Assembly: GCF_009914755.1 (NCBI RefSeq)
Contig: NC_060926.1
DNA from: the human T2T-CHM13v2.0 reference genome, Homo sapiens
Direction: 5' to 3' (one strand)
Length of the DNA stretch: 64,000 nucleotides
A program made the position numbers and the translations under genes. The notes beneath the pieces are model-generated. The model worked only from the letters and a program-made list of their open reading frames with translations, made no database searches and was not told where the DNA came from. This document shows, piece by piece, positions 30,380 through 31,169 of this stretch. Positions within the stretch are counted from its first letter, which is position 1, and each line of letters begins with the position of its first letter.

Positions 30380-30620
30380 CTTTTACCAAGTCTTTGGTCC
30401 TGAAAACAACCCTGTAAGATAGAAATTATTTTACAGATAAAGAAGTAGACCCATAGGGATGAAGTCTCAGTTAGGGTTAGTAGACCCAGAGGGTCTACTT
30501 CTCAGTCTCAGTTAGGGTTAGAATTAGGGTTAGAATTAGGGTTAGGGTTAGGGTTAGGTTTGTTCCTGGTTCAAACAATCAGAAAACTAAAGAACACAAT
30601 CTAGGCCCAATGACCAACCC
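30380..30620 (-). mobile_element. MIR fragment hosting the telomeric insertion
   Basis: acaaccctgtaagatag...ttttacagataaagaagtagacccatagggatgaagt [insertion] ttgttcctggttcaaacaatcag follows the MIR core order. Confidence 0.6.
30465..30558 (+). repeat. Short interstitial telomeric sequence (TTAGGG/TTAGAA) with TERC-complementary leaders
   Basis: TTAGGG at 30471; in-phase TTAGGG TTAGAA TTAGGG TTAGAA TTAGGG TTAGGG TTAGGG TTAGG at 30512-30558; tctcagttagggttag at 30465-30480 and 30506-30521. Confidence 0.9.
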
Positions 30621-31169
30621 AGGCCTTCCCTGTCATATCATATCAGTAAACAACATGAAACATTGGACTCCTGGATTGTTTTATAGGTTTCCACATAAAT
30701 TGTTCTTCTCAAATTGTGGAAGTCAAAAAATAGTCCTTCGTAATTTGCAGGGTTTTTGAGAATGATGGCATTTTGTCATCTCCTAAACACCTGCATTCAT
30801 GCAATATGTTTACACCCCTTCGTGCTTACCAAGCACTTTCACAGCCTCCTCTTTTATCATCTGATACTTATATTTTCCTTATGAGCCAAGCAGGAAATAT
30901 TGTCCCTATTTTACTTAGTGATAAAAGTGAGGCTCATAGATAGACAGTGACTTACTGATTTATTTCTCACTTTCCAGCACCTTGATGACTATCAATTTTG
31001 TTAATCTTTTCTTTTCCATTGCAATAATTTTCTGGCTCTTCTATCTAGAAGTATCTCCATCTCATTTCCTCCTCCAAATTTTTGCAAATTTTCTAGTTAT
31101 AGTGCTGAACAGAAAAGTAATTTTTCTTACTGTAAACTCTACAGATCTCTGTAAAAAGGGACACTGATG

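What the first reader, a model, noticed from the sequence alone, without database searches (positions are those of the whole stretch)
30441..30558. Fossil double-strand-break repair: telomerase-RNA-templated DNA interleaved with templated copies of the flank
Seen: an insertion of ~94 bp in a MIR made of (a) tctcagttagggttag 30465-30480; (b) agtagacccagaggg 30479-30493, a 14/15 direct copy of flank 30444-30458; (c) gggtctacttct 30491-30502, the exact reverse complement of flank 30441-30452; (d) cagt, then tctcagttagggttaga 30506-30522; (e) an in-phase TTAGGG/TTAGAA array to 30558. Known (TERC recalled from memory): human TERC reads ...UCUAACCCUAACUGAGAAGGG..., so TCTCAGTTAGGGTTAGA is complementary to the template plus 5 nt beyond its 3' edge, and cttctcagt (30498-30506) is complementary to ACUGAGAAG. 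TERC-flanked interstitial telomeres are a described but rare class. Inference: the broken end was extended by telomerase primed outside the template, switched to local templated (polymerase-theta-like) synthesis, and the fold-back end cttct re-primed on TERC AGAAG. This would record alternating telomerase and templated-insertion repair in one event.
Basis: partly seen in the sequence, partly recalled or inferred. Interest (0 to 1): 0.85.

Follow-up and report, generated by a model that had tools for sequence, protein, structure and literature searches.

The report
Telomere repeats bearing telomerase-RNA fingerprint
A short stretch of telomere repeats buried inside human chromosome 2 carries, at its edge, bases that match telomerase's own RNA just beside its template, mixed with local copies of the neighbouring DNA; it is a rare but already described kind of scar from an ancient chromosome-break repair.

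Summary
At window 30465-30558 (T2T chr2:222,548,465-558) an 8-unit TTAGGG/TTAGAA array is preceded by two blocks that match antisense TERC exactly: nt 46-61 and nt 45-61. A third piece of 9 nt matches nt 55-63. Between the blocks lie a 14/15 direct copy and a 12/12 inverted copy of the flank.

The 16-mer occurs 3 times in the 3.1-Gb assembly: twice here and once in TERC. No other array in this genome carries 5 or more TERC-adjacent bases.

TERC-flanked interstitial telomeres are a published class. The two published human loci are on chr6 and chr18 and are of another type. Template-adjacent copying is reported for mouse and Xenopus.

- The second block is an 18/18 copy of the first junction and includes 2 flank bases, so it may be a local copy rather than a second telomerase start.
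- Only the left flank is demonstrably MIR-like.
- The repeat consensus resembles the first block, so TCTCAG could be ancestral primer sequence.
- No primate orthologue could be examined.

Verdict: a new human member of a known kind, of moderate interest.

The parts
30392..30459 (+). Left flank: fragment of a highly repeated MIR-like interspersed element. The family name is recalled; no Dfam or RepeatMasker was on hand.
   Evidence: The flank motif occurs 7,505 times in the genome against 59 for the reversed control. nhmmer with an HMM of 30 copies aligns window 30392-30459, E 2.5e-6. 0 of 1,000 shuffles reach the alignment score.
30441..30458 (+). Stretch of flank that served as the template for both local copies.
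   Evidence: It is the source of the direct copy (30444-30458) and of the inverted copy (30441-30452).
30459..30464 (+). ATGAAG: either the last flank bases or filler. Its last two bases (AG) are included in the 18-nt repeat.
   Evidence: Read. The 18-nt copy starts at 30463. Repeat homology here is too weak to assign the bases.
30465..30480 (+). First TERC-type block: exact antisense of TERC nt 46-61, that is the template plus 5 nt on its 3' side.
   Evidence: The genome-wide 16-mer count is 3: two here plus TERC.
30479..30493 (+). Direct copy of flank 30444-30458 (14/15), overlapping the previous block by AG.
30491..30502 (+). Inverted copy of flank 30441-30452 (12/12), overlapping the direct copy by GGG. 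Together with the direct copy it forms a 9-bp hairpin.
   Evidence: DNA fold of 30476-30506: -7.8 kcal/mol, z -4.22, and 0 of 200 shuffles fold as well.
30498..30506 (+). CTTCTCAGT: 9-nt exact antisense of TERC nt 55-63. CTTCT belongs to the inverted flank copy, and only C at 30503 has no local template.
30504..30521 (+). 18-nt exact direct repeat of 30463-30480: two flank bases plus the first TERC-type block.
30506..30522 (+). Second TERC-type block: exact antisense of TERC nt 45-61.
30512..30558 (+). Telomeric array of about 8 units in one phase. Two units are TTAGAA, within a 22-nt exact internal repeat of 12-nt period.
   Evidence: It differs from pure TTAGGG at 4 of 47 bases.
30559..30640 (+). 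Right flank: unique sequence with no demonstrable homology to the repeat family of the left flank.
   Evidence: 832 of 1,000 shuffles reach its score, and 492 to 841 of 1,000 in the four tests.

Best explanation
This is a short interstitial telomeric sequence left by the repair of an old germ-line double-strand break, next to a MIR-like repeat fragment. Telomerase RNA itself was at the break. The G-strand begins with the bases that pair with TERC nt 57-61, immediately 3' of the template, and these bases do not occur in telomeric DNA. I think the broken top-strand 3' end was extended on TERC from nt 61 through the template, giving TCTCAG plus TTAGGGTTAG. The nascent end then left the RNA and went through short microhomology-guided template switches on nearby DNA. 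First came a direct copy of 13-15 flank bases entered through AG. Then came a snap-back inverted copy of 9-12 bases entered through GGG/CCC. Then came a return to the first junction through AG, which re-copied AG plus the 16-mer. Telomerase repeat addition then built the array, and the end was joined to the right side. Shown: all the sequence identities and overlaps. Inferred: the order of steps, that it was one event, and the enzymes (telomerase; a polymerase-theta-like or replicative template-switching polymerase).
For: - There are exact antisense TERC matches of 16 and 17 nt reaching nt 61.
- The 16-mer is found only here (twice) and in TERC in 3.1 Gb.
- Among 36 array edges of the form non-GG + G + (TTAGGG)2.7, 5 have CAG and none extends beyond TCAG.
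- The 4 other 15-mer sites have no array, no further TERC identity, and no repeat homology in their flanks.
- With an array-context pattern, only this locus and the chr11q telomere edge match TCAG.
- The chance expectation is 0.02-0.06 loci genome-wide.
- The flank copies are 14/15 direct and 12/12 inverted. Only 3 of 20,000 shuffles reach 12 nt.
- The hairpin has z -4.2.
- An 18/18 repeat joins the two junctions.
- Precedent in print: 8 of 14 mouse TERC-ITS have a few bases complementary to the sequence just 3' of the template (section read). Xenopus locus 38 has TERC 54-64 upstream in the same orientation. Flank duplication accompanies 4 of 25 primate ITS insertions.
Against: - No empty orthologous site was seen, so insertion of TCTCAG is not shown.
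- The consensus of 30 repeat copies has GCTCAGAGAGGTTAAG at the colinear place, 11/16 to the first block.
With those 14 nt kept, the score is 16.2.
- Only 5 bases are TERC-specific, shorter than any fragment in the published table (8-118 nt).
- No second human locus of this type exists in this assembly, so there is no recurrence to lean on.
- Under my local-copy reading, the 9-nt match to TERC 55-63 is an unexplained 6-base coincidence.
- Direct copying of the left flank onto the left end needs a template strand, such as the sister chromatid or homologue, which simple end resection would remove (inference).
Confidence: 0.45

Rival explanations
1. In one event, telomerase primed outside the template, and synthesis switched to local templated copying. 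The fold-back end ...CTTCT-3' then re-annealed to TERC AGAAG (nt 59-63) and telomerase started a second time.
For: CTTCTCAGT is an exact 9-nt antisense match to TERC 55-63. C at 30503 is the only base of 30481-30521 without a local template, and TERC G58 explains it. The chance of six specified bases is 2.4e-4.
Against: After CTTCTCAG(T), the sequence does not continue TAGGG but restarts at TCTCAG. That needs a further jump with at most 1-2 nt of pairing (reading). The 18/18 identity with the first junction, including flank AG, is explained without TERC. Whether it was one event cannot be tested here.
Confidence: 0.2
2. This is the primer model. TCTCAG, or at least CTCAG, was already in the ancestral repeat sequence at the break. 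Its 3' end paired with TERC nt 56-61 and telomerase simply added TTAGGG repeats from it. Nothing beyond the template was reverse-transcribed. Later or concurrent local template switching duplicated the junction.
For: The repeat consensus carries GCTCAG at the colinear place. The model keeping the block as repeat scores 19.8 bits against 16.9. [quoted passage not shown] Mechanistically this is the most natural substrate for telomerase (inference).
Against: It needs an unexplained 14-nt insertion (30445-30458) in the repeat. With that stretch kept, the model scores no better than the native sequence (16.2). The native HMM alignment instead assigns 30445-30459 to that part of the repeat. Only 1 of 30 sampled copies has CTCAG at that place, and none exceeds 9/16 identity to the block. 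556 of 5,000 shuffled 16-mers reach 11/16 somewhere in the consensus.
Confidence: 0.2
3. Chance or filler. TCTCAG is random filler added at the junction, as at other ITS insertions, and it matches TERC by accident. A later tandem duplication with a small template switch made the second copy.
For: Random additions accompany ITS insertions. The structure reads as a 35-nt tandem repeat at 71% identity. The 15-mer occurs at 4 unrelated sites, about what chance predicts for a 15-mer in this genome.
Against: The expected number of ITS loci with this 6-base match by chance is 0.02-0.06. The second coincidence, the 9 nt to TERC 55-63, adds roughly another 2e-4.
Confidence: 0.1
4. In-situ birth. The repeat sequence drifted to TTAGGGTTAG and the array grew by slippage, without telomerase.
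For: The repeat consensus is 11/16 identical to the block. The 12-nt unit duplication inside the array shows slippage-type change.
Against: It needs five specific substitutions and no others in 16 bases, and none of the 30 copies exceeds 9/16. The published comparisons show ITSs appear in one step. It does not explain the flank copies.
Confidence: 0.03

Closest known systems
TERC-ITS loci (Nergadze et al. 2007, PMC2246262; Sola et al. 2021, PMC8537989)
   Same: Telomeric hexamers at an internal site sit directly beside sequence derived from telomerase RNA outside its template. This is read as telomerase-RNA-templated repair of a double-strand break. Flank modifications typical of end joining are present.
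   Different: The two published human loci (HSA6:33092493, TERC 8-32; HSA18:73830841, TERC 15-45) have the TERC piece downstream of the repeats, from read-through on the 5' side of the template, and it is 25-31 nt long. Here the piece is upstream, on the 3' side of the template, only 5-8 nt long, and present twice. The locus is not in their Table 1. Their screen started from BLAST hits to TERC, which such a short piece would probably not give (inference). My attempt to imitate that screen was uninformative.
Template-adjacent bases at mouse TERC-ITS, and Xenopus laevis locus 38 (TERC 54-64)
   Same: A few bases complementary to the RNA immediately 3' of the template precede the first hexamer, in the same orientation as the repeats. 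This is seen in 8 of 14 mouse loci and in Xenopus type C.
   Different: In mouse these bases come with a long inverted fragment of the 3' domain of TERC. In Xenopus the array is head-to-head. Neither is reported with direct and inverted copies of the flank. No human example appears in the text I read. I could not see the supplements.
Templated insertions of polymerase-theta-mediated end joining, and short replicative template switches
   Same: Insert pieces are identical to sequence within 25 nt of the break. One is direct and one inverted (snap-back), and they are entered through 2-3 nt overlaps. This signature is described in passages of PMC11707537.
   Different: The copies are interleaved with RNA-templated telomerase product. 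I found no paper describing that combination. Searches: 4 papers, none on this, judged from the listing plus passages of two of them; 10 papers holding the motif; by their titles they mostly concern TERC itself and none is about ITSs; listing only. The enzyme cannot be assigned from sequence.
Ordinary short ITS with flanking duplication (Nergadze 2004/2007; Santagostino 2020, PMC7215372)
   Same: A short array of about 47 bp sits at an internal site. Flank duplication is one of the four described insertion modes, seen at 4 of 25 primate loci. By its 8 units and 4 mismatches the locus meets the criteria for the list of 229 human ITSs.
   Different: The duplication is not a simple target-site duplication. 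It lies inside the insert, has an inverted partner, and is bracketed by TERC-type blocks.

Membership tests
Short interstitial telomeric sequence inserted at a break | Short in-phase (TTAGGG)n array at a non-terminal, non-subtelomeric site | tested here: met
   There are 8 units at 30511-30558. The site lies about 20 Mb from the chromosome end (window place given by the hub; contig length). The left flank is found only at this locus by DNA search.
Short interstitial telomeric sequence inserted at a break | Array absent as a block from an orthologous empty locus | not testable with these tools
   No primate or other vertebrate genome is held.
TERC-ITS | Sequence identical or complementary to TERC outside the template, directly adjacent to the hexamers | tested here: met
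   There are exact matches to nt 46-61 and 45-61, and 9 nt to nt 55-63. The template is nt 46-56 in the fetched gene.
TERC-ITS | TERC-like fragment long enough to be found with TERC as query (published fragments 8-118 nt) | tested here: inconclusive
   The fragment beyond the template is 5 nt (7 nt in the 9-mer). A DNA search with the 5' 77 nt of TERC returned only TERC, but it also missed the two published human loci.
TERC-ITS | TERC-like piece and repeats inserted together in one step | not testable with these tools
   This needs orthologous empty loci.
Polymerase-theta-type templated insertion | Insert pieces copied from sequence close to the break, direct or inverted, entered by short microhomology | tested here: met
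   The copies are 14/15 direct and 12/12 inverted, from a template 7-24 nt upstream of the junction, with overlaps AG and GGG. 3 of 20,000 shuffles reach the 12-nt match.
Polymerase-theta-type templated insertion | Dependence on POLQ | not testable with these tools
   This is a fossil event, and replicative template switching gives the same pattern (established knowledge, recalled).
MIR interspersed repeat as host of the insertion | Both flanks align colinearly to the repeat, with the insert interrupting it | tested here: not met
   Left flank: 0 of 1,000 shuffles reach its score, HMM E 2.5e-6. Right flank: 832 of 1,000 shuffles reach its score, and 492 to 841 of 1,000. The family name is recalled, and the consensus was built from 30 genomic copies.

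The most novel reading that the evidence does not exclude
The locus records, in a single germ-line repair event, a broken end handed back and forth between telomerase and a microhomology-driven DNA polymerase. Telomerase started 5 nt outside its template. The product was released after about one and a half repeats. Local direct and snap-back synthesis followed. The snap-back end ...CTTCT then re-engaged TERC at AGAAG (nt 59-63), so the single-stranded RNA 3' of the template acted as an extended alignment site for non-telomeric ends.
Probability: 0.2. Interest if true: 0.65.

Novelty: new member of a known kind. Interest (0 to 1): 0.4.

Why it matters
Whether interstitial telomeric repeats were made by telomerase at breaks or captured from telomeric DNA has been argued mainly from rodent TERC-ITS loci. 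A human array that begins with bases found in TERC but not in telomeres is direct sequence evidence for the RNA being at a human-lineage break. It points to nt 57-63 as usable, either as template or as alignment site.

It also suggests a cheap test on existing data. Tan et al. 2024 report that 22% of tumour neotelomere and fusion junctions carry 1-10 nt of unexplained non-telomeric sequence (passages). Those junctions could be scanned for TERC-adjacent strings.

The interleaved flank copies would, if made in one event, show telomerase and template-switching synthesis competing for one end.

Tried and rejected
1. A DNA search of the genome with the whole locus was swamped by telomeric repeats: 450 matches, none informative about the flanks.
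2. A DNA search with the left flank alone found only the locus itself. Local blastn of both flanks against the window gave only weak hits with E above 0.01.
3. MAFFT of the locus with 30 repeat copies forced the insert onto the repeat and was not usable as it stood. A cheap-long-gap pairwise alignment gave many tiny blocks.
4. By eye I thought three of the four other 15-mer sites were copies of the same repeat carrying the motif at the same place. nhmmer found nothing. Flank-versus-consensus tests were not significant: 61 to 980 of 1,000 shuffles reached the scores. I rejected the idea.
5. My first count of TERC identity upstream of CAG was off by one. It is corrected.
6. The positive-control search with the TERC 5' region returned only TERC and did not recover the published chr6 and chr18 loci, so it says nothing about detectability.
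The human ITS lists of that paper and of PMC2246262 are named as supplementary PDFs in the text. I could therefore not check whether this locus is listed as an ordinary ITS.
8. Earlier scan findings were not open.
9. A search for the 2004 primate ITS paper found nothing in the library.
10. Passages of the Kinzig et al. preprint and of Tan et al. gave no statement on copying 3' of the template.
11. I considered and rejected the A at 30522 as read-through to nt 45, because the same TTAGA recurs inside the array.

Full report
**What is there.**

Window 30441-30558 corresponds to T2T-CHM13 chr2:222,548,441-558 by the hub's placement. It reads, left to right:
- Flank ending in ...AGAAGTAGACCCATAGGGATGAAG.
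- TCTCAGTTAGGGTTAG (30465-30480).
- A 14/15 direct copy of flank 30444-30458 (30479-30493), overlapping the previous piece by AG.
- The exact reverse complement of flank 30441-30452 (30491-30502), overlapping by GGG.
- CAG.
- TCTCAGTTAGGGTTAGA (30506-30522).
- An in-phase array running to 30558.

The repeat finder reports the 12-nt inverted pair (100%, 38 nt apart) and a 35-nt direct repeat (30444-30478 against 30479-30513, 71%). TRF reports 8.0 units of period 6, and a 12-nt period at 94% matches. The direct and inverted copies form a 9-bp hairpin as single-stranded DNA: -7.8 kcal/mol, z -4.22, and 0 of 200 shuffles fold as well.

**The TERC identity is real.**

Rfam RF00024 found the telomerase RNA gene in the same assembly (chr3, minus strand, 353.6 bits, E 3.2e-91). 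The locus reads ...gtctaaccctaactgagaagggcg..., with the template at nt 46-56.

Exact antisense matches:
- 30465-30480 = nt 46-61.
- 30498-30506 = nt 55-63.
- 30506-30522 = nt 45-61.

So each block carries five TERC-specific bases (nt 57-61) that telomeric DNA does not contain. The extra A (nt 45) is not informative, because the same TTAGA recurs inside the array as part of a TTAGAA unit (30524-30534). The two TTAGAA units lie in a 22-nt exact internal repeat.

**More than chance?**

- The 16-mer occurs 3 times in 3.1 Gb: twice here and once in TERC. The reversed control occurs once.
- The 15-mer occurs 7 times, against 2 for the control. The four other sites have no array, no further identity to TERC on either side, and no repeat homology in their flanks. 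About six occurrences of a given 15-mer are expected by chance in a genome of this size (my arithmetic).
- Among 36 sites where a non-GG dinucleotide plus G precedes (TTAGGG)2.7, 5 have CAG. Three of those are paralogous 4q/10q subtelomeric variants. None goes beyond TCAG.
- A pattern allowing a variant second unit finds only this locus and the edge of the chr11q telomere.
- With 83 to 229 human ITS loci (numbers), 0.02-0.06 loci would carry six specified upstream bases by chance.
- The flank copies are independently improbable. 3 of 20,000 shuffles of the 25-nt core reach a 12-nt match to the ±200-nt flanks.

**What is already known.**

Sola et al. 2021 (PMC8537989; I read the abstract, Results, the mechanisms section, and the tables and legends) list 41 TERC-ITS loci in 22 vertebrates. 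Two are human: HSA6:33092493 (TERC 8-32) and HSA18:73830841 (TERC 15-45). Both have the TERC piece downstream of the repeats, explained as read-through past the template. The chr2 locus is not in their Table 1.

Nergadze et al. 2007 (PMC2246262; I read one section and passages) state three relevant things:
- TERC additions were then seen only in rodents.
- Flank duplication accompanied 4 of 25 primate insertions.

Xenopus locus 38 (TERC 54-64, upstream, same orientation) is the nearest published analogue.

The motif as a literal string occurs in 10 papers. By their titles they mostly concern TERC itself and none is about ITSs (listing only). A search for ITS together with 'templated insertion' gave 4 papers. 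None describes the combination seen here, judged from the listing plus passages of two of them.

I could not see supplementary lists. The locus may therefore well be catalogued as an ordinary ITS among the 229 of Santagostino et al. 2020, whose criteria it meets.

**Is the second block a second telomerase start?**

A base-by-base source map shows that 30504-30521 is an 18/18 copy of 30463-30480. That is the 16-mer plus the two flank bases AG before it. So 30481-30521 can be written entirely from local templates:
- 13 nt direct.
- 9 nt inverted.
- 18 nt direct.

Only C at 30503 has no local template. The entries go through AG, GGG and AG. That is the pattern of microhomology-guided template switching, and it makes a second telomerase initiation unnecessary.

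Against this, the local reading leaves CTTCTCAGT (TERC 55-63) as a coincidence of six bases, about 2e-4. But re-priming predicts CTTCTCAG followed by TTAGGG, whereas the sequence has a further TCTCAG. Pairing that would support a 6-nt back-slip on TERC is absent (reading). A mixed path fits every base: re-priming adds CAG, then an AG-mediated return to the first junction. It also has the most steps.

**Is TCTCAG inserted at all?**

The left flank is a member of a very abundant family. Its motif occurs 7,505 times against 59 for the control. An HMM of 30 copies aligns 30392-30459 at E 2.5e-6. I call it MIR-like from memory, because no repeat library was on hand.

The consensus of those 30 copies continues with GCTCAGAGAGGTTAAG. 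That is 11/16 identical to the first TERC-type block and lies at the colinear place. I scored candidate empty sites with the HMM:
- A model keeping the first block as repeat sequence and deleting 30445-30458 as well: 19.8 bits.
- The same model with those 14 nt kept: 16.2 bits.
- The native sequence: 16.2 bits.

The differences are too small to decide. Against a repeat origin of the whole block:
- None of the 30 copies exceeds 9/16 identity to it.
- Only 1 of 30 copies has CTCAG at that place.
- 556 of 5,000 shuffled 16-mers reach 11/16 somewhere in the consensus.

A hybrid stays plausible: an ancestral ...CTCAG-3' end paired with TERC 56-60 and served as primer. In that case TERC was still at the break, but nothing outside the template was copied.

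The right flank shows no significant homology to the repeat: 832 of 1,000 shuffles, and 492 to 841 of 1,000. So 'inserted within a MIR' is not established, and the empty site cannot be rebuilt from the consensus.

**Age.**

The paired copies differ at 1 of 45 sites. The array differs from pure TTAGGG at 4 of 47 positions, which can be two substitutions followed by a 12-nt duplication. At 1e-9 per site per year this gives about 11 My, with a 95% interval of 0.3-62 My. That is too loose to be useful. Published data say that more than 90% of human ITSs predate the human-chimpanzee split.

**Verdict.**

The locus is best filed as a new human member of the TERC-ITS class, of the template-adjacent kind so far described in mouse and Xenopus. 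Its junction is unusually rich, with both direct and inverted flank copies.

The alternating-enzyme, single-event story is possible but not shown. One alignment to primate orthologues would settle most of what is open.

Noticed in passing
L009 (G000:C16:55580953-55581152): This internal chr16 site has TTAGGGTTAG-type hexamers embedded in a unit of about 55-60 nt (CTGGGATGGGC.GGAAAGAGGGG... plus hexamers) that occurs at least twice in tandem. Flank plus telomeric motif were duplicated together, loosely like the locus studied here.
   Followed up: no
L008 (G000:C11:135125077-135125276): The terminal chr11q telomere array starts right after ...GATCAG. Four bases (TCAG) agree with antisense TERC beside the template. 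It is the only other array-context match to TCAG in the assembly, and it is compatible with chance.
   Followed up: partly
L005, L006, L007 (chr4q and chr10q ends): Three subtelomeric arrays share the same variant stretch ...GGGTTATGGGTTACAGTTAGGG..., as expected for the paralogous 4q/10q subtelomeres.
   Followed up: no
window 30512-30545: Two TTAGAA units lie in a 22-nt exact internal repeat of 12-nt period. This suggests two G-to-A changes followed by duplication of a 12-nt unit, rather than four independent changes.
   Followed up: partly
window 30454 versus 30489: The only difference between the flank and its direct copy is T in the flank against G in the copy. The repeat consensus has G at the aligned place. 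The copy may therefore preserve the ancestral base and the flank changed later, though the alignment there is weak.
   Followed up: partly
window 30465-30480 versus repeat consensus: Antisense TERC nt 46-61 and the MIR-like consensus segment GCTCAGAGAGGTTAAG are 11/16 identical. Breaks at this place in such repeats could therefore expose ends partly complementary to TERC. I did not test whether ITSs are enriched at this repeat position.
   Followed up: no
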